From NCBI RefSeq assembly GCF_011045215.1, contig NZ_CP049201.1: DNA of 64,000 bases; one strand, written 5' to 3'. Of the stretch, positions 1,967 to 56,894 are shown in pieces. The first letter of the stretch is position 1, and each line of letters opens with the position of its first letter. Under the pieces are notes generated by a model. The model worked only from the letters and a program-made list of their open reading frames with translations, had not been told where the DNA came from and ran no database searches. This DNA is from Escherichia coli (GTDB taxonomy: Bacteria; Pseudomonadota; Gammaproteobacteria; Enterobacterales; Enterobacteriaceae). A program made the translations under genes and the position numbers.

Positions 1967-2031
1967 GATGGTGACCTCAGTTAAGAGAAGCCAGTTAAGT
2001 GTAGTTCGAAATTTGTACAGGTGAGGGGGAG

Positions 2032-2110
<79 letters not shown>

Positions 2111-7740: not shown

Positions 7741-7793
7741 GCTGAAACGGATGGCCTGATGTGACGCTGTCTTATCAGACCAACAATTGAACT

Positions 7794-7810
7794 CTTAAGG
7801 TTCACTTAAT
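7794..7810 (+). promoter_or_regulatory. PmrA(BasR) box upstream of pmrR
   Basis: CTTAAG-GTTCA-CTTAAT is a direct hexamer repeat with a 5-nt spacer, 45 nt upstream of the pmrR ATG. It matches the YTTAAK-N5-YTTAAK PmrA box. Confidence 0.55.
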
Positions 7811-7854
7811 CTCTGCCGCGCATACTCTGCTCCAGGTTAACGGAGGAGAGTGCA

Positions 7855-7944
7855 ATGAAAAACCGTGTTTATGAAAGTTTAACTACCGTGTTCAGCGTGC
7901 TGGTGGTCAGCAGCTTTCTTTATATCTGGTTTGCCACGTACTGA
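7855..7944 (+). CDS. pmrR: Small membrane peptide PmrR (29 aa)
   Basis: The SD GGAGGAG is followed by an ATG at 7855, giving MKNRVYESLTTVFSVLVVSSFLYIWFATY*. The ORF is too short for the ORF track. Its 3' end overlaps the convergent basS stop region. Confidence 0.7.
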   Translation: MKNRVYESLTTVFSVLVVSSFLYIWFATY

Positions 7945-9011
7945 TCTTTCTTCAGCCGTATCCAGGCGCGCGTGCCAGAAGTCTCTTGCCGGTTTTGCAG
8001 GAAAAACTGCCCGTGATGCAACTGTGTAATGCGGCTGACAATACTTAACCCCAGACCAATCCCGCCATAACGGCTGTCCATACGTACAAACGCTTTACTC
8101 AACTCCCCGCATTTACTCTCATCAATACCCGGTCCTTCATCTTCAACGGCCATGACGGCTCCGCCATCTTCTTGCAGCTTAATCATAATGTTGCTGCCTT
8201 GCGGGCTGTAACGATGGGCATTTTCTACCAGATTTCGCAATAACATCCGCAGCAGGGTTGCATCACCCTGAACGGTGATGTCGGCGGCGCTCTCTGGCAA
8301 TAGCAGGGTTTGCTGGCGCTGGTCGAGCATAGTACTGAGTTCGTCATACGAGGGGAGAATGACATCTTCCAGCAGTTTTACATGTTGATAATTACCGGAA
8401 GAAAATGACTGTCCGGCACGCGCCAGTTGCAGCAGCTGGGAGACGCTCTCCATCATCTGATCAAGCCGTGCCACTAACGGTGCTACATCAATGTGATGCG
8501 TTTTCGCCAGCAGTTCCAGATGCAAACGCACCCCCGCCAGTGGCGTTCGCAGTTCGTGCGCGACGTCAGCGGTAAATAACCTTTCGTTATCCAGCGTGCT
8601 GGTCAGGCGACTGACCAGATCGTTCAACGCCGAAACCACCGCTTCGATTTCGAGGGTGGCGCTGTGAATGGCAATGGGCGTTAAGTTGTCGGCGGTGCGC
8701 GCTTCCAGCTCTTTTTGCAGCTCCGCCAGCGGGCGGGTGATGCGGCGTACCGCCTGATAGCAGATAAATAGCGTCAGGCTGACCATAAAGACGCCGGGGA
8801 CAATCAGGCTGGCGACCGCCTCGCGGATCTCACGCATGATGTGGCGATCGTTGTTGCGATTGTCGCGTAGCGCCTGCTCAAACAGCTGAATCTGCTCGGT
8901 ACTTTCATGCCATAGCCAGAAGACGCTGATCAGCTCAAACACCAACAAAATGGCCCCGATGGTCAATATCAGCCGTTGGCGCAGCGATATTGGTCGGCGC
9001 AGAAAACGCAT
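7920..9011 (-). CDS. basS: Sensor histidine kinase BasS (PmrB)
   Basis: 363 aa from the ATG at 9011 (MRFLRRPISLRQRL...). It has the H-box ADVAHELRTPL and the G-box DEGPGI..GGIGLGLSIV. The ORF track's TTG at 9020 is an alternative start. Confidence 0.9.
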   Translation of the reverse strand: MRFLRRPISLRQRLILTIGAILLVFELISVFWLWHESTEQIQLFEQALRDNRNNDRHIMREIREAVASLIVPGVFMVSLTLFICYQAVRRITRPLAELQKELEARTADNLTPIAIHSATLEIEAVVSALNDLVSRLTSTLDNERLFTADVAHELRTPLAGVRLHLELLAKTHHIDVAPLVARLDQMMESVSQLLQLARAGQSFSSGNYQHVKLLEDVILPSYDELSTMLDQRQQTLLLPESAADITVQGDATLLRMLLRNLVENAHRYSPQGSNIMIKLQEDGGAVMAVEDEGPGIDESKCGELSKAFVRMDSRYGGIGLGLSIVSRITQLHHGQFFLQNRQETSGTRAWIRLKKDQYVANQI

Positions 9012-37675: not shown

Positions 37676-38254
37676 AATAGAAACTCATTCGAAAAGGGAA
37701 TGATGCAATGATAATTGCCACAACCTATTTTTACCATCTATAGATGGGTTTATTTACATATTATTGGTGAATGCAAGACGTTATTTTTACCAGCCATAAA
37801 CTTCTTGATTACATGGTATTAAGAAAGGATTTTACTGAGAACCAGAAGTAATATTCCTTACCATCAAAATTCATCATCTTTGCCAAAGAAAAATGTTCAG
37901 AAAATAATCCATGGAAAATTGTCCGGAGCGCTTACTATTTTAATGGATTGTTAGTCTTTGCATGAGCAAGCGGACTGATACATTTCTCTTTGTTCTCATT
38001 CAGAAAATCTCATCAGTCGCCGTTCAGACCGGTGTTGTGCTTTATGGATGCGTTACGCTCCTGATGACGTCATTTGACGTTCAACAGCATCACGGGGTCG
38101 CACGACATTTCACGTCAGTTAGTGCTATAGCTCAGGAACAAATTTTCCCGAATTGGGATATGCCCGCAAATTGCTGGTGATGTGGGGAGAATCTGGTTGA
38201 GTTCGGTAGAATTGATTTGGCGGCAGAACGCTTAAATCGTGGCGTCCTGAAACG

Positions 38255-54217: not shown

Positions 54218-54248
54218 AACGGCGCTGTATTTGCAGCGCCGTTTTTTA
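54218..54248 (+). terminator. Rho-independent terminator of topB
   Basis: AACGGCGCTG-tattt-GCAGCGCCGTT followed by TTTTTATT. Confidence 0.75.
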
Positions 54249-54255
54249 TTCCGGG

Positions 54256-54284
54256 TTGACTTTCCATGGATGTGTTTTAAAAAT
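54256..54284 (+). promoter_or_regulatory. Candidate sigma70 promoter for the structured leader and DUF3577-like/ssb genes
   Basis: -35 TTGACT (54256-61), a 16-17 nt spacer, then TAAAAA/AAAAAT. The predicted start is ~20 nt before the tandem hairpin element. Confidence 0.4.
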
Positions 54285-54310
54285 AACCGGGCTTATTTGC
54301 TGCATCTGCA

Positions 54311-54404
54311 GCCAGCCAATGTTTCAGCAGTCTGAGAGAAACGCCTTCGGGTGACTGCCAGCCAACGTTTCACCGGCCTGAGAGAAACACCTTCGGGTGG
54401 CCGG
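54311..54404 (+). ncRNA. Tandem (2 x 46 nt) hairpin/pseudoknot element with compensatory stem changes; a STAXI-motif-like leader
   Basis: Unit 1 stem GCAGTC(54327-32)/GACTGC(54353-58). Unit 2 stem CCGGCC(54373-78)/GGCCGG(54399-404). The loop TGAGAGAAAC(G/A)CCTTCGGGT is conserved and contains a C(G/A)CC-UUCG-GGUG mini-hairpin. GTTTC 5' of each stem can pair with GAAAC in the loop to form a pseudoknot. Confidence 0.5.
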
Positions 54405-54567
54405 AATATCCTCGTAGCCTGAAAGAGGATGCCTGTGGGCGGTACATCCGTTTAACCTCTGGAAACGGATATCACTGTTCAGTGATTGAGGTCTTTTTAC
54501 TTCTCAGACAGCCGGAATTCAGCTGATCCGGCATCCCCGACGGGAACATTCACTTCCGTCAGGGATG

Positions 54568-54594
54568 GTGATGTTCTCCGTCATCACATTTTTT
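54568..54594 (+). terminator. Terminator/attenuator-like hairpin in the leader, with an anti-SD loop
   Basis: GTGATG-ttctccgt-CATCAC-A-TTTTTT lies 20 nt before the ATG at 54615. The loop TTCTCC is complementary to the SD GGAGAA (54603-08). Confidence 0.4.
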
Positions 54595-54614
54595 AACTCC
54601 ATGGAGAAATCATC

Positions 54615-55070
54615 ATGTCTGTAAATACTGCTAAAACTGAATACTTTAATCTGACCCTGAAAGGTCTGGGGTATCTCAGTAATGTACGTCAGGTGAATCA
54701 CCAGAACGGCTCGTTTCTCAGCTGTGTGGTGAATGCGCTGAGCGGACCCACGGACAGCCCGTCCTACGTCCGTTTTGATGTCACGGTTGCCGGTAAAGAG
54801 GCGACTGCCCTGATTGCCCGCTGCCAGAAGGCGGTGGATGAAGATCGCAAGGTGCTGCTTGGCTTCACGCTGAGCAACCTGTCCACTGACATCTTCACTC
54901 TGAACAAGGGAGAGCATGCCGGTGAACAACGCGTCAGCCTGAAGGCCCGCCTGATCAAGGTGGACTGGATCAAGATAGGCCAGGAGATGGTTTACAAGGC
55001 TGAAAAATCAGACTCCCAGCCGCCGCAAAACGGCACCATGCAACAGCAATACGCAGAAAACTCTTTCTGA
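54615..55070 (+). CDS. DUF3577-like protein (STY4534-family 'ICE replication protein' type)
   Basis: 151 aa starting MSVNTAKTEYFNLTLKGLGYLSNVRQV.... It sits between topB and ssb, as in SPI-7-like islands. The family name is from memory. Confidence 0.65.
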   Translation: MSVNTAKTEYFNLTLKGLGYLSNVRQVNHQNGSFLSCVVNALSGPTDSPSYVRFDVTVAGKEATALIARCQKAVDEDRKVLLGFTLSNLSTDIFTLNKGEHAGEQRVSLKARLIKVDWIKIGQEMVYKAEKSDSQPPQNGTMQQQYAENSF

Positions 55071-55096
55071 TCGTACTTTTCTCAACCGTCCTGATG

Positions 55097-55135
55097 AAAA
55101 CAGACTGCCTCATCAGGGCGGTCTGTTTTCTTATT
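55097..55135 (+). terminator. Terminator-like hairpin(s) after 54615..55070
   Basis: AAAACAGAC(55097-105)/GTCTGTTTT(55121-29) is followed by CTTATT. It overlaps the alternative hairpin CCTGATGA/TCATCAGG. Confidence 0.5.
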
Positions 55136-55160
55136 GTCTTTATCTTTAAGGAAACTTCTT

Positions 55161-55364
55161 ATGCAACAGCCAAATGGCATGCTGGCCGCACAGGCCGGCT
55201 ATACGTTACCCCTTCAGGTTCTCCGCAGCGTACGTGGTTATTATATTGGTACTCAGTGTGATGAGGGACCGGTGTCCCGCGAATCCGTGGAGTATTACAG
55301 AGACCATGAGCAGGCGGCACAGGCGCTGGAAAGCGGCACCTGGACGCAGCGGACGTGTGCGTGA
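55161..55364 (+). CDS. Hypothetical small protein
   Basis: 67 aa from the ATG at 55161 (SD AAGGAAA): MQQPNGMLAAQAGYTLPLQVLRSVRGYYIGTQCDEGPVSRESVEYY.... Confidence 0.5.
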   Translation: MQQPNGMLAAQAGYTLPLQVLRSVRGYYIGTQCDEGPVSRESVEYYRDHEQAAQALESGTWTQRTCA

Positions 55365-55379
55365 GGATGAGGAGGCTAT

Positions 55380-55913
55380 ATGGCATCACGCGGTATTAAT
55401 AAGGTGATACTGATAGGACATCTTGGACAGGATCCGGAGATTCGTTATCTTCCCAATGGCGGAGCCGTGGCGAACCTGACCCTGGCCACCAGTGAATCCT
55501 GGCGTGATAAACAGAGCGGTGAAATGAAGGAGCAGACCGAGTGGCACCGCGTGGTGATTTTCGGAAAACTGGCGGAGATAGCCGGTGAATACCTGCGTAA
55601 GGGTTCACAGGTGTACATCGAGGGCCAGTTAAAGACCCGGAAGTGGTTCGATCAGCAGAATGGTGTTGATCGCTACGCAACGGAAGTGGTGGTGAGTGTC
55701 AACGGCACCCTGCAGATGCTGGGCTCTCCGCGCCAGCAGGCCAGTGGTGCCGCACCCGTACACAGCGGTCAGGGAACTGCCGGTGCGCCGGCGGGTAACT
55801 CACCGTCACCGGCTTCCGGGAACGGCGGGGGAATGCCGATGGATTTTGACGACGACATTCCCTTCAGTGGACCGGGATATGGCGCTGAACGGCGGATTAT
55901 CCATGCCATGTAA
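55380..55913 (+). CDS. ssb: Single-stranded DNA-binding protein with a 15-aa extension beyond the canonical DDDIPF tip
   Basis: OB fold [44 protein letters not shown], a Gly/Pro/Ala-rich linker, then MDFDDDIPF followed by [15 protein letters not shown]. Confidence 0.9.
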
Positions 55914-55961: not shown

Positions 55962-56894
55962 GTGAGTGAAAAAAATCATACCACCCCCACGCCACACGAT
56001 GCGGCGTTCAGGGCGATGATGGAAACCCCTTCGGTTGCAAGGGATTTTCTGGAGGCTGCGTTGCCGCCGGCACAGTTACAGCGGTGCGATATGAACACCC
56101 TGAAGCTGGAGCCGGCCACGTTTGTGGATCCGGATTTGCGTCAGTATGCCAGTGACGTTCTGTGGAGCATGAAAACCACCGACGGGCGTGATGGTTACAT
56201 CTACGCGCTGACGGAACATCAGAGCTCTGCGGATCGTTTTATGGCCCTGCGCATGATGCATTATGTGCTGGCGATAATGTATCGTCACCTGAAAACGCAT
56301 AATCAGGCCCCCGTTGTGATCCCGGTGCTTTTTTATCACGGTGAACCCAGTCCGTATCCGTACAGCCTGAACTGGCTGGACTGTCTGGACGATCCGGCGC
56401 TTGGTCGTGAGCTTTACGGCGAAGGAAAGCCGCCCCGCGTCATTGATGTGGGTCTTCTTGATGATGAGGGTATCCGTCACTATCAGCAGATGGCGGCCCT
56501 GATGCTTCTGATGAAGGTCCGTCAGCGGAAGGGCGATCTGATGACGCAGCTTGACTTTCTGTCACAGTTGCTTCAGATACAGGGAACACACGATCAGGTG
56601 GTGGTTCTGTTAAACTATATGGTGAAGGCGTGCGATTCGGCTTCACCGGAATTTATACGGGTGATGGCAGAACATCTGCCCCGGTATGAGGATGATATTA
56701 TGACTATCGCTGAACGACTTGAACTGGCGGGTATCGAAAAAGGTATCGAAAAAGGCCGTCAGGAAGAGAGAGAAAAGGCGCTTGAGAAGACGCTTGAGGC
56801 TGCCCGTCGGATGCAGAAGATGGGGATGTCGCCTGAGAGTATTCAGGAGATCCTGCAGCTTTCTGATGACGAGCTGCGGAAAGCGCTCGGTTAA
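55962..56894 (+). CDS. Rpn-family recombination-promoting nuclease / putative transposase (YhgA-like, PD-(D/E)XK)
   Basis: 310 aa with a GTG start after SD AGGAGG. The N-terminus TPTPHDAAFRAMMETPSVARDFLEAALP and D..LW..K..DG..YIYALTEHQS are typical Rpn/Transposase_31 motifs. Confidence 0.85.
   Translation: MSEKNHTTPTPHDAAFRAMMETPSVARDFLEAALPPAQLQRCDMNTLKLEPATFVDPDLRQYASDVLWSMKTTDGRDGYIYALTEHQSSADRFMALRMMHYVLAIMYRHLKTHNQAPVVIPVLFYHGEPSPYPYSLNWLDCLDDPALGRELYGEGKPPRVIDVGLLDDEGIRHYQQMAALMLLMKVRQRKGDLMTQLDFLSQLLQIQGTHDQVVVLLNYMVKACDSASPEFIRVMAEHLPRYEDDIMTIAERLELAGIEKGIEKGRQEEREKALEKTLEAARRMQKMGMSPESIQEILQLSDDELRKALG

What the first reader, a model, noticed from the sequence alone, without database searches (positions are those of the whole stretch)
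54256..54487. Promoter-proximal tandem hairpin/pseudoknot element with compensatory base-pair changes and UUCG loops between topB and the ssb operon (STAXI-like)
**Setting.** The topB terminator (54218-48) is followed by a TTGACT-17-AAAAAT promoter-like site, and then by two 46-nt tandem units at 54311-56 and 54357-404.

**Compensatory changes.** The loop sequences are conserved but the stems differ in a compensatory way. Unit 1 has GCAGTC/GACTGC and unit 2 has CCGGCC/GGCCGG. Three base pairs are changed on both sides (G-C to C-G, A-T to G-C, T-A to C-G).

**Inner hairpin.** Each loop contains a C(G/A)CC-TTCG-GGTG mini-hairpin. The G.U to A-U change together with a UUCG tetraloop argues for an RNA-level structure.

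**Pseudoknot.** GTTTC, 5' of each stem (54321-25, 54367-71), is complementary to GAAAC in the loop (54338-42, 54384-88), which gives an H-type pseudoknot alternative.

**Further hairpins.**
- ATCCTC/GAGGAT at 54408-30.
- ATCCGTTT/AAACGGAT at 54446-70.
- ATCACT/AGTGAT at 54471-86.

**Match to STAXI.** A simple pseudoknot repeated at least twice, next to ssb, topoisomerase and integrase genes in Enterobacteria, is how the STAXI motif was described, and no function is known for it. I cannot confirm the match without the covariance model.
Basis: partly seen in the sequence, partly recalled or inferred. Interest (0 to 1): 0.7.

Follow-up and report, generated by a model that had tools for sequence, protein, structure and literature searches.

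The report
Known STAXI RNA in ICE leader
This is a genuine copy of the already catalogued STAXI RNA motif: three tandem pseudoknots, made from their own promoter at the start of the long leader of the ssb operon of an E. coli integrative conjugative element. The identification is correct, the kind is known, and its function remains unknown.

Summary
Rfam's STAXI model (RF01728) matches window 54298-54448 (+) end to end at 135.2 bits (gathering score 40.5, E 4.7e-29). The stated repeats, stems and pseudoknot pairings are at the stated coordinates. Three details need correcting: there are three units, not two; the inner hairpin has 3 bp; and the pseudoknot coexists with the stems.

Across 53 distinct units from about 30 loci, every pair of the pseudoknot and of the outer stem shows compensatory changes. 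G.U wobbles outnumber A.C by 71 to 9, so the structure is on the sense strand. A sigma70-like promoter sits at a fixed distance upstream in 30 of 31 arrays. This favours a transcribed RNA over single-stranded DNA.

In this ICE context STAXI is the 5' half of a conserved leader of about 325 nt. The 3' half of that leader pairs the Shine-Dalgarno and start codon of the DUF3577-ssb operon. The same ICE carries three promoter-plus-STAXI modules in front of three operons. A module of about 950 bp (STAXI plus EFASI) also rides on small plasmids.

The most likely role is a shared cis-acting RNA leader for post-transcriptional control, but that is inferred. The kind is already known, and interest is modest.

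The parts
54218..54249 (+). Intrinsic terminator of topB (11-bp stem plus T run). It separates the upstream operon from the STAXI promoter.
   Evidence: An equivalent hairpin plus T run precedes the promoter in homologous loci.
54256..54284 (+). Sigma70-like promoter TTGACT-17-AAAAAT (or TTGACT-16-TAAAAA). The inferred transcription start is near 54290-54292.
   Evidence: 9 of 12 matches. A site at the same offset is the best match in 30 of 31 distinct arrays, with TTGACN in 23 of 31 and non-conserved spacers. The start site is inferred, not measured.
54299..54312 (+). 5' hairpin GCUGC-AUCU-GCAGC, the first helix of the Rfam STAXI model.
   Evidence: alignment. Homologues have different stem sequences at the same place (GUCGC/GCGAC, GUUGUC/GACAAC, GUCACC/GGUGAC).
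54316..54358 (+). STAXI unit 1, an H-type pseudoknot: GUUUC 54321-25 with GAAAC 54338-42; outer stem 54327-32 with 54353-58; inner GCC-UUCG-GGU 54343-52; invariant CCAA and UGAGA.
   Evidence: (68.2 bits with the unit model).
54362..54404 (+). STAXI unit 2: GUUUC 54367-71 with GAAAC 54384-88; outer stem CCGGCC 54373-78 with GGCCGG 54399-404; inner ACC-UUCG-GGU.
   Evidence: (58.8 bits).
54408..54445 (+). STAXI unit 3 (degenerate): pseudoknot AUCCUC 54408-13 with GAGGAU 54425-30; outer stem GUAGCC 54414-19 with GG-UAC 54441-45; inner GCC-UGUG-GGC.
   Evidence: alignment (model positions 119-150). It is too diverged for the unit model at E<=1. Equivalent last units are present in homologues.
54446..54492 (+). 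Conserved 3' domain beyond the Rfam model: hairpin H1 54446-70, hairpin H2 54471-86, and GAGGU 54488-92, which can pair with loop ACCUC 54455-59.
   Evidence: H1 and H2 covary (4 of 6 and 5 of 6 pairs with double changes). The loop-tail pairing is kept in 95.7% of cells but shows only one double change. The domain is present in nearly all instances in every context.
54505..54622 (+). Structure enclosing the translation start: outer helix CAGACA 54505-10 with UGUCUG 54617-22; hairpin 54511-32; hairpin 54532-67; anti-SD UUCUCCG 54574-80 paired with UGGAGAA 54602-08 (Shine-Dalgarno); AUG at 54615.
   Evidence: MFE z = -5.5. The consensus fold of 14 homologous leaders has the SD helix paired in 93.9% of cells. 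In independent folds the SD is paired in 14 of 14. No double changes occur in the SD helix, so this is consistent but not proven by covariation.
54615..55913 (+). Downstream operon: DUF3577 / STY4534-family gene (54615-55070), a small ORF, and ssb (55380-55913).
   Evidence: Pfam PF12101 (E 1e-57) and PF00436 (E 5e-39); NCBIfam NF040584; RefSeq annotation. Synteny is conserved in 8 further genera.

Best explanation
**What it is.** The element is a bona fide STAXI RNA.

**Proposed sequence of events.**
- It is transcribed from its own sigma70-type promoter (-35 at 54256, start near 54291).
- It folds into a 5' hairpin, three tandem H-type pseudoknots and a two-hairpin 3' domain.
- It forms the 5' half of a leader of about 325 nt for the DUF3577-orf-ssb operon of an SPI-7/ICEclc-type ICE.
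- The 3' half of that leader locks the Shine-Dalgarno and AUG into a three-way junction, so the default state is translationally closed.

**Proposed function.** The promoter-plus-STAXI cassette is a cis-acting post-transcriptional control module. The ICE uses it three times: for the ssb operon, for an Integrase_1-family recombinase, and for a block of unknown 'establishment-type' genes. The repeated pseudoknots, with invariant unpaired CCAA and UGAGA, would act as a multivalent platform for a trans-acting factor, most plausibly a protein. That factor would set the stability, elongation or start-site accessibility of the mRNA.

**Shown here.** Family membership; the structure and its strand; conservation of the promoter; the leader architecture; the multiple copies.

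**Inferred only.** The transcription start; continuity of the transcript into the operon; cis-regulation; the existence and identity of a binding factor.

**Confidence by claim.** About 0.98 that it is STAXI, about 0.85 that it acts as RNA, and about 0.45 that its role is cis-regulatory as described.
For: - **Membership.** Full-length Rfam hit, 135.2 bits against a gathering score of 40.5.
- **Structure.** On 53 distinct units, 96.4% of cells are paired against 32-69% in slid registers. All 5 pseudoknot pairs and all 6 outer-stem pairs show double changes.
- **Strand.** 71 G.U against 9 A.C in the units, and 40 against 10 in the downstream leader.
- **Promoter.** A promoter-like site lies at -59 to -63 from the first unit in 30 of 31 distinct arrays, with variable spacers.
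- **Leader conservation.** The leader is conserved from the promoter to the ATG in 14 loci of about 10 genera. The SD is paired in 14 of 14 independent folds.
- **Three copies in one ICE.** All are co-directional with downstream genes. Copy 3 precedes an unrelated gene yet has the same leader, including SD sequestration.
- **Transcription.** RNA-seq detected transcription across STAXI downstream of topB in Pectobacterium (PMC4710047). RT-qPCR detected STAXI RNA in E. coli (PMC12370729).
Against: - No transcription start or transcript end has been measured for this locus.
- The SD-sequestering helix and the 3'-domain pseudoknot are nearly invariant, so covariation cannot confirm them.
- STAXI also occurs with no protein gene downstream: on a 3.1-kb plasmid and in the O157 ter/ure island. 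It is followed by weak terminator-like hairpins in copy 2. Both fit a free-standing RNA.
- No candidate RNA-binding protein was found in the ICE annotation.
- In ICEclc the homologous operon has only a 25-nt leader (PMC2892462), so the module is dispensable for this ICE family as a whole.
Confidence: 0.5

Rival explanations
1. STAXI is a free-standing, trans-acting small RNA of about 200 nt, running from the promoter to the T-rich stretch after the 3' domain. Its repeated pseudoknots would sequester or recruit a protein, in the manner of the CsrB/RsmZ sponges. Read-through into the ssb operon would be incidental.
For: - The promoter-STAXI(-EFASI) module exists without any downstream gene on small plasmids and in a decayed O157 island.
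- A T-rich run follows the 3' domain in most homologues.
- A weak terminator-like hairpin follows copy 2.
- Rfam classes STAXI as an sRNA.
- STAXI RNA has been detected in outer-membrane vesicles.
- The repeated identical motifs suit multivalent binding.
Against: - In the window, no terminator is called between 54298 and 54560.
- The sequence from the 3' domain to the ATG is conserved and structured as one unit in 14 loci.
- The same leader design recurs before an unrelated gene, which points to a link with the downstream translation start.
Confidence: 0.25
2. STAXI acts as single-stranded DNA. It could be a single-strand initiation site or origin (ssi/sso) for complementary-strand synthesis after conjugation or rolling-circle replication. 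It could also be a Frpo-like folded ssDNA promoter for early genes.
For: - The neighbours handle ssDNA (ssb, topB, an ICE that transfers as ssDNA). The original authors raised this possibility.
- STAXI is present on a Rep_1 rolling-circle plasmid and on ColE1-type plasmids, always on the same strand as RNAI.
- Folding as DNA is better than shuffles on both strands (z = -3.3 and -2.5).
- From my own knowledge: the complement of cUUCGg is cCGAAg, a GNA-type loop that is very stable in DNA.
Against: - A duplex-type promoter at a fixed offset is conserved. It is not part of any conserved fold-back: promoter-to-leader complementarity has mean z = -0.4 across 14 homologues.
- The wobble asymmetry places the selected structure on the sense strand, not the template strand.
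- In ColE1-type plasmids the sense strand is the leading-strand template (inferred from the RNAI orientation and textbook ColE1 replication).
- RCR relatives of 1.7-2.1 kb, with 70-85% identical Rep, lack STAXI, so it is not that replicon's origin.
- The element is continuous with an SD-sequestering structure, which only has meaning in RNA.
Confidence: 0.07
3. STAXI is a cis-acting processive antiterminator. It would be a nascent RNA structure at the promoter-proximal end that modifies the RNA polymerase which made it, as HK022 put does, so that long ICE operons are read through internal terminators.
For: - Its position immediately after the start site is fixed.
- It heads three long co-directional gene blocks of the ICE.
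- Terminator-like hairpins lie downstream: 54566-54586 in the window and 9972-9988 in L128.
- It needs no element-encoded protein, which would fit its occurrence on tiny plasmids.
Against: - The terminator-like hairpin at 54566-86 is specific to this window. In homologues the same bases form the anti-SD stem.
- There is no sequence or structural resemblance to put or EAR in the permissive Rfam scan.
- On small plasmids there is nothing long to read through.
Confidence: 0.1
4. The repeats act as double-stranded DNA: iterons, or accessory sequences of a recombination site for the neighbouring tyrosine recombinase or a replication protein. The apparent RNA structure would then be incidental.
For: - Direct repeats with a 46-bp period lie next to genes annotated as 'ICE replication protein'.
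- The STAXI-EFASI module lies directly upstream of an Integrase_1-family gene and travels to small plasmids without it, as a resolution site might.
Against: Protein-binding repeats conserve sequence, not pairing. Here the stems differ between units and between loci while 96% of pairs are kept, with double changes at 11 of 14 pairs and a strand-specific wobble bias.
Confidence: 0.03

Closest known systems
STAXI RNA motif (Rfam RF01728; Weinberg et al. 2010, PMC2864571)
   Same: Everything that defines the family matches: the 5' hairpin, tandem pseudoknot units (here 2 canonical plus 1 degenerate), UUCG loops, an enterobacterial host, and location between topB and ssb in an ICE. The model match is full-length at 135 bits.
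   Different: Nothing in the motif itself differs. This work adds points that the passages I read of the 2010 paper and the Rfam model do not cover: a conserved promoter at a fixed offset, a conserved 3' domain beyond the model's end, a downstream SD/AUG-sequestering leader, three copies per ICE, and carriage on small RCR and ColE1-type plasmids.
EFASI RNA motif (Rfam RF02957)
   Same: It is a partner element. It lies 150-550 nt downstream of STAXI on the same strand in 10 of the loci examined, including copy 2 of this ICE.
   Different: It is absent from the window and from the ssb-operon context. It has no conserved complementarity to STAXI's invariant loops. It has a promoter-like site of its own on plasmid L125.
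Phage T4 gene 32 mRNA leader pseudoknot (autoregulation by an ssDNA-binding protein; my own knowledge)
   Same: A pseudoknot lies at the 5' end of the leader of an operon encoding ssDNA-binding protein(s). Both are mobile or viral DNA elements that pass through ssDNA stages.
   Different: T4 has one pseudoknot followed by an unstructured A/U-rich operator. Here there are three pseudoknots followed by a highly structured translation start. STAXI also heads operons without ssb. No binding data exist.
Phage HK022 put RNAs / EAR element (cis-acting processive antitermination RNAs; my own knowledge)
   Same: A promoter-proximal, strongly structured nascent RNA heads long operons of a mobile element.
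   Different: There is no sequence or structural similarity. put elements are two stem-loops, not pseudoknot repeats. Read-through of terminators was not demonstrated.
Frpo / ssi single-strand promoters and initiation sites of plasmid leading regions, and sso of rolling-circle plasmids (my own knowledge)
   Same: They are repeated, structured non-coding elements upstream of ssb and anti-restriction-type genes in conjugative elements. STAXI is also present on a rolling-circle plasmid.
   Different: The promoter here is not within a fold-back. The selected structure is on the non-template strand. RCR relatives lack the element.
PinR promoter region of the orf95213-inrR-ssb operon of ICEclc (PMC2892462, PMC9286271)
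   Same: It is the homologous operon position in the same ICE superfamily, a control point of the transfer-competence regulon.
   Different: ICEclc has a 25-nt leader and an RpoS-like promoter activated by BisDC/InrR. The enterobacterial branch has a near-consensus -35 and a structured leader of about 325 nt instead.

Membership tests
STAXI RNA (RF01728) | Covariance-model score at or above the curated gathering score, over the whole model | tested here: met
   135.2 bits against 40.5; model positions 1-153 of 153; E 4.7e-29; 8.8e-31 on the local stretch.
STAXI RNA (RF01728) | A pseudoknot unit repeated at least twice, usually three times | tested here: met
   Units at 54316-58, 54362-404 and 54408-45. 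Across 31 arrays there are 1-4 canonical units plus a degenerate last one.
STAXI RNA (RF01728) | Stems and pseudoknot supported by compensatory changes | tested here: met
   11 of 14 pairs show double changes, and 96.4% of cells are paired on 53 distinct units. Within this window, three double changes separate units 1 and 2, and unit 3 has a different pseudoknot sequence.
STAXI RNA (RF01728) | UUCG tetraloops in the units | tested here: met
   cUUCGg in units 1 and 2, and UGUG in unit 3. UUCG in 43 of 53 units overall.
STAXI RNA (RF01728) | Enterobacterial host, next to ssb, topoisomerase, integrase or anti-restriction genes | tested here: met
   E. coli chromosome, with topB upstream and DUF3577-ssb downstream.
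Frpo-type single-strand promoter | The -35 and -10 hexamers are made duplex by a conserved long fold-back of the transferred strand | tested here: not met
   Only short palindrome and A/T-run matches occur in the window. There is no conserved complementarity in 14 homologues (mean z = -0.4).
Frpo-type single-strand promoter / ssi on the template strand | The structure is selected on the strand that serves as template for the downstream genes | tested here: not met
   71 G.U against 9 A.C places the structure on the sense strand.
Single-strand origin (sso) of a rolling-circle plasmid | A component of the replicon that is shared by related Rep_1 plasmids | tested here: not met
   Rep_1 plasmids of 1.7-2.1 kb with 70-85% identical Rep are not among the 37 plasmid records carrying STAXI. 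Homology between L125 and the 2.1-kb relative covers only 349-1743. Which strand is nicked could not be established.
T4 gene 32-type autoregulatory leader | A 5' pseudoknot nucleates cooperative binding of the encoded ssDNA-binding protein over an unstructured translation start | tested here: inconclusive
   Pseudoknots upstream of an ssb operon are present. However, the translation start is strongly structured, and binding is not testable with these tools.
Riboswitch (tandem aptamers plus expression platform) | A conserved ligand pocket coupled to an alternative structure that overlaps the expression platform | not testable with these tools
   Invariant unpaired CCAA and UGAGA, and an SD-sequestering stem, exist. 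No mutually exclusive pairing linking them is conserved: the window's 54322-37 / 54502-17 complementarity is absent in homologues. The original authors rated it 'not a switch'.

The most novel reading that the evidence does not exclude
STAXI could be the RNA operator of an ssDNA-sensing regulon. Free ICE ssDNA-binding protein (SSB and/or the DUF3577 protein, which may itself have an OB fold) would bind the tandem pseudoknots and keep STAXI-led mRNAs closed or unstable. These mRNAs encode the ssb operon, a recombinase and establishment genes. When the ICE becomes single-stranded, during transfer, entry or rolling-circle replication, the protein would be titrated away and the regulon would open. 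This would extend the T4 gene 32 autoregulation principle to a whole set of operons. Small plasmids carrying the module would be tapping into, or buffering, the same signal.
Probability: 0.1. Interest if true: 0.75.

Novelty: already known. Interest (0 to 1): 0.35.

Why it matters
STAXI has been an orphan motif since 2010, and about one E. coli genome in eight carries it (685 of 5426). This instance offers a tractable setting. A near-consensus promoter is followed by pseudoknots and then by a leader that closes the ribosome-binding site of the ssb operon. That operon belongs to the replication/stabilisation module of a widespread ICE family; the corresponding module is reported as important for transfer of ICEHin1056 (highlights of PMC3739013, listed). 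If the module is a common post-transcriptional switch for three ICE operons, it would be a new control layer for the transfer of islands that carry virulence and resistance genes. It would also settle the RNA-versus-ssDNA question left open by the motif's discoverers. If it is merely a stable leader or a small RNA of minor effect, the finding is ordinary annotation.

Tried and rejected
1. **Loose genome scan.** My one genome-contig scan used a pattern with 15 specified bases. It returned mostly chance hits in unrelated phyla, and only about 16 of 120 loci were real.
2. **Thermodynamic folding of 54292-54500.** This was uninformative for RNA (z = -0.5 sense, -1.1 antisense), because MFE folding ignores pseudoknots. 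DNA parameters gave z = -3.3 and -2.5 and do not discriminate between the strands.
3. **Frpo-like folded promoter.** The window has TCCATGGA and A/T-run complementarity between the promoter and the RBS region. It is not conserved, so I rejected it.
4. **STAXI as the sso of the 3.1-kb RCR plasmid.** I rejected this because shorter relatives lack the element. The pC194-type nick motif CTTGATA is absent, and its one-mismatch matches are no more frequent than chance, so the displaced strand could not be fixed.
5. **EFASI pairing with STAXI loops.** There is no conserved complementarity.
6. **A conserved small ORF between STAXI and EFASI.** None was found.
7. **A switch between unit 1 and the CAGACA arm.** The window has 54322-37 / 54502-17 complementarity, but it is not conserved in homologues.
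8. **DUF3577 as a recognisable SSB.**
   - No PDB sequence hit.
   - hhalign to the ICE SSB gave probability 0.1%.
   - The AlphaFold model reached only pLDDT 53.
   - Foldseek's top hits are SSB/OB-fold proteins, but at E >= 0.15. This is a lead only.
9. **Phage collection.** No STAXI-like DNA was found.
10. **Literature.** I found no functional study of STAXI.
Full report
**1. Observation.**
- Tandem Repeats Finder reports a 46-nt period, 1.9 copies and 88% matches at 54311-54399.
- The pairings GTTTC/GAAAC and GCAGTC/GACTGC (unit 1), and GTTTC/GAAAC and CCGGCC/GGCCGG (unit 2), are at the stated positions. Three of the six outer-stem pairs differ on both sides between the two units.
- The topB terminator (54218-54243 plus a T run) and a TTGACT-17-AAAAAT site (54256-54284) are both called. 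By itself the promoter match is no better than chance in this stretch (1 found, 0.7 expected).

**2. Identity.** Rfam's STAXI model (RF01728) matches 54298-54448 on the + strand over all 153 model positions at 135.2 bits (gathering score 40.5, E 4.7e-29). The alignment shows a 5' hairpin (54299-54312) and three units, not two.
- The inner hairpin is 3 bp. G54353 belongs to the outer stem.
- The window is 100% identical to E. coli RM11911 over the 421 bases compared. The element lies in an SPI-7/ICEclc-type ICE of about 65 kb between cadC and tRNA-Phe.
- The local gene order is an AcaB-family gene, topB, STAXI, a DUF3577/STY4534-family gene, a small ORF, then ssb.
- This is the setting in which the motif was defined in 2010. 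The authors left RNA versus ssDNA open and leaned towards RNA because of the UUCG loops (PMC2864571). I found no functional study since. There is only RNA-seq detection downstream of topB in Pectobacterium and RT-qPCR detection in E. coli vesicles.

**3. Structure and strand.** I collected STAXI instances from E. coli genomes, plasmids, other Enterobacterales and loci encoding DUF3577 homologues.
- A first alignment of 34 distinct 43-nt units gave 96.2% of cells paired, against 79.7% after shuffling and 32-58% in slid registers. All 5 pseudoknot pairs and all 6 outer-stem pairs showed double changes.
- A unit covariance model then retrieved 67 units, 53 of them distinct, and gave the same result: 96.4% paired and 11 of 14 pairs with double changes.
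- The pseudoknot is therefore real and compatible with the stems.
- G.U wobbles outnumber A.C/C.A by 71 to 9 (40 to 6 in the first set). The closing G.U of the inner hairpin is the commonest state (37 of 53). The selected structure is therefore on the STAXI-sense strand.
- The loop is UUCG in 43 of 53 units.
- CCAA and UGAGA are invariant in the 34-unit alignment and are unpaired in the model.

**4. Promoter.** In 30 of 31 distinct arrays, the best sigma70-like match within 90 nt upstream starts 59-63 nt before the first canonical unit. The -35 hexamer is TTGACN in 23 of 31, and the spacers are unrelated in sequence. The one exception has a degenerate first unit. A conserved duplex-type promoter at a fixed offset, together with the sense-strand wobble bias and UUCG loops, argues that the functional form is a transcript starting near 54291. 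The start site is an inference.

**5. Extent: a long conserved leader.**
- Downstream of the Rfam model, two hairpins (54446-70, 54471-86) are conserved in nearly all instances and covary. A further pairing of the first loop (ACCUC) with GAGGU at 54488-92 is kept in 95.7% of cells but has a single double change.
- In the ICE context (14 loci, about 10 genera) conservation continues to the start codon. It comprises a covarying hairpin (54511-32), a conserved hairpin (54532-67) and a stem pairing UUCUCCG (54574-80) with UGGAGAA (54602-08), which is the Shine-Dalgarno.
- In most homologues an outer helix also pairs CAGAC with GUCUG, which overlaps the AUG.
- Independent MFE folds of the 14 leaders pair the SD in 14 of 14 and the AUG region in about 12.
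- The window's segment 54493-54630 folds with z = -5.5.
- The SD helix is almost invariant, so covariation cannot prove it.
- The terminator-like hairpin called at 54566-86 is specific to this window. It uses the same bases as the anti-SD arm.

**6. A reused module.** The same ICE has two more STAXI copies beyond the window, all on the gene strand.
- Copy 2 is followed by an EFASI motif and an Integrase_1/Phage_int_SAM_2 recombinase gene.
- Copy 3 is followed by a block of unknown genes, then a DUF1281 gene and an N6-methylase gene.
- Both copies have the promoter at the same offset.
- Copy 3's leader repeats the whole design, including a stem that pairs its own, different SD region, although the first gene is unrelated.
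- In ICEclc the homologous orf95213-inrR-ssb operon starts 25 nt upstream of its first ORF. The module is therefore an addition in the enterobacterial branch.

**7. Small plasmids.**
- A unit of about 950 bp (promoter, STAXI, spacer, EFASI), homologous to the copy 2 region, is present on a 3.1-kb plasmid whose only clear gene is a Rep_1 rolling-circle initiator, and on ColE1-type plasmids.
- This first suggested a single-strand origin. However, Rep_1 relatives of 1.7-2.1 kb (Rep 70-85% identical) lack it.
- In the ColE1-type plasmids STAXI is always on the RNAI strand, which by textbook ColE1 replication is the leading-strand template. Those plasmids represent about two independent lineages.
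- A Frpo-type folded ssDNA promoter is not supported. The window's promoter/RBS complementarity is a palindrome plus an A/T run, and it is not conserved (mean z = -0.4).
- The plasmid copies have no protein gene downstream. This is the main argument that STAXI can act without a cis target.

**8. Mechanism.**
- The best-supported reading is an RNA leader module. A constitutive-looking promoter drives a transcript whose 5' half (STAXI) is a multivalent structured platform. Its 3' half keeps the translation start of the operon closed. The ICE uses this design for three operons, which suggests co-regulation by one trans-acting factor. Steps shown and steps inferred are listed in the best explanation. 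I put about 0.45 on this cis-regulatory role.
- The rivals, with probabilities, are: a free-standing sRNA or protein sponge (0.25), processive antitermination (0.10), ssDNA functions (0.07) and double-stranded repeats (0.03).
- A tempting specific version is autoregulation by the encoded ssDNA-binding proteins, as for T4 gene 32. It has no direct support. DUF3577 has no detectable sequence relative in the PDB or similarity to SSB. Its AlphaFold model is of low confidence (pLDDT 53). The SSB/OB-fold proteins at the top of the Foldseek list are not significant (E >= 0.15).

**9. Verdict.** The kind is already known and this is a standard member in the standard context. The added observations sharpen the RNA-versus-DNA question and make the motif experimentally approachable, but they do not reveal its function. 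These are the fixed-offset promoter, the 3' domain, the SD-sequestering leader, the three copies per ICE and the plasmid-borne module.

Noticed in passing
L128 9773-9925, 10426-10583 and 12016-12141 (RM11911 record 3881772-3884140; same ICE, beyond the window's end): The ICE in this window carries two more STAXI copies. One is followed by an EFASI motif and an Integrase_1-family gene. The other is followed by a block of unknown genes, then DUF1281 and N6-methylase genes. Both have the same promoter offset, and copy 3 has the same SD-sequestering leader.
   Followed up: yes
window 54505-54622: The Shine-Dalgarno and AUG of the DUF3577 gene are enclosed in a conserved three-way junction (MFE z = -5.5). 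The SD is paired in 14 of 14 homologous leaders. This implies translational control of the ICE ssb operon.
   Followed up: yes
L125 (NZ_CP059920.1, 3140 bp); L126, L127, L083, L121, L032: A module of about 950 bp (promoter, STAXI, EFASI) without an integrase sits on a Rep_1 rolling-circle plasmid and on ColE1-type plasmids, always on the RNAI strand. RCR relatives of about 2 kb lack it. Its role there is unexplained.
   Followed up: partly
L125 2410-2383 (- strand): A sigma70-like site (TTGAAA-16-AAAAAT) ends exactly where the EFASI match begins, so EFASI may be its own transcript. This was seen in one locus only.
   Followed up: no
window 54615-55070: The DUF3577/STY4534-family protein has no PDB or SSB sequence similarity. 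Its low-confidence model has a beta-beta-alpha-beta-beta topology, and the non-significant top fold matches are OB-fold ssDNA-binding proteins. Its C-terminus (Y-x-x-N-S-F) is invariant in the 17-sequence alignment.
   Followed up: partly
window 54566-54586: A terminator-like hairpin plus T run overlaps the anti-SD arm, giving a mutually exclusive alternative to the SD-sequestering stem. It is present in this window but not in the homologues examined.
   Followed up: partly
window 7786-7951 (+): A full-length match to the enterobacterial sRNA STnc630 (RF02052, 169 bits), outside the ICE.
   Followed up: no
window 2031-2107 (-): A match to naRNA4 / CssrE (RF02564, 104 bits), a REP-type nucleoid-associated RNA element.
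   Followed up: no
window about 38028-38187, and 38534 onward: This is the left end of the ICE. A frameshifted tyrosine-recombinase fragment lies next to cadC, followed by parA, dnaB-PI, parB, DUF2786, DUF2857 and STY4528-family genes. The right end, with TraI, integrase and tRNA-Phe, lies about 39 kb beyond the window.
   Followed up: partly
window 55962-56894: An Rpn/YhgA-like (Transposase_31) recombination-promoting nuclease gene lies directly after ssb inside the ICE. It is also present in a related E. coli ICE (L135) but not in other genera.
   Followed up: no
L032 and L066 1669-1740; L101 2377-2449: tRNA-like matches lie on small STAXI-bearing contigs or plasmids, possibly as attachment-site remnants of integrative elements.
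   Followed up: no
L114 and L036 (MAG 'Proteobacteria bacterium CTSoil_132'): Full STAXI arrays, one with a DUF3577 gene downstream, occur in a soil metagenome-assembled genome whose record title gives only 'Proteobacteria'. Whether this extends the motif beyond Enterobacterales is unknown.
   Followed up: no
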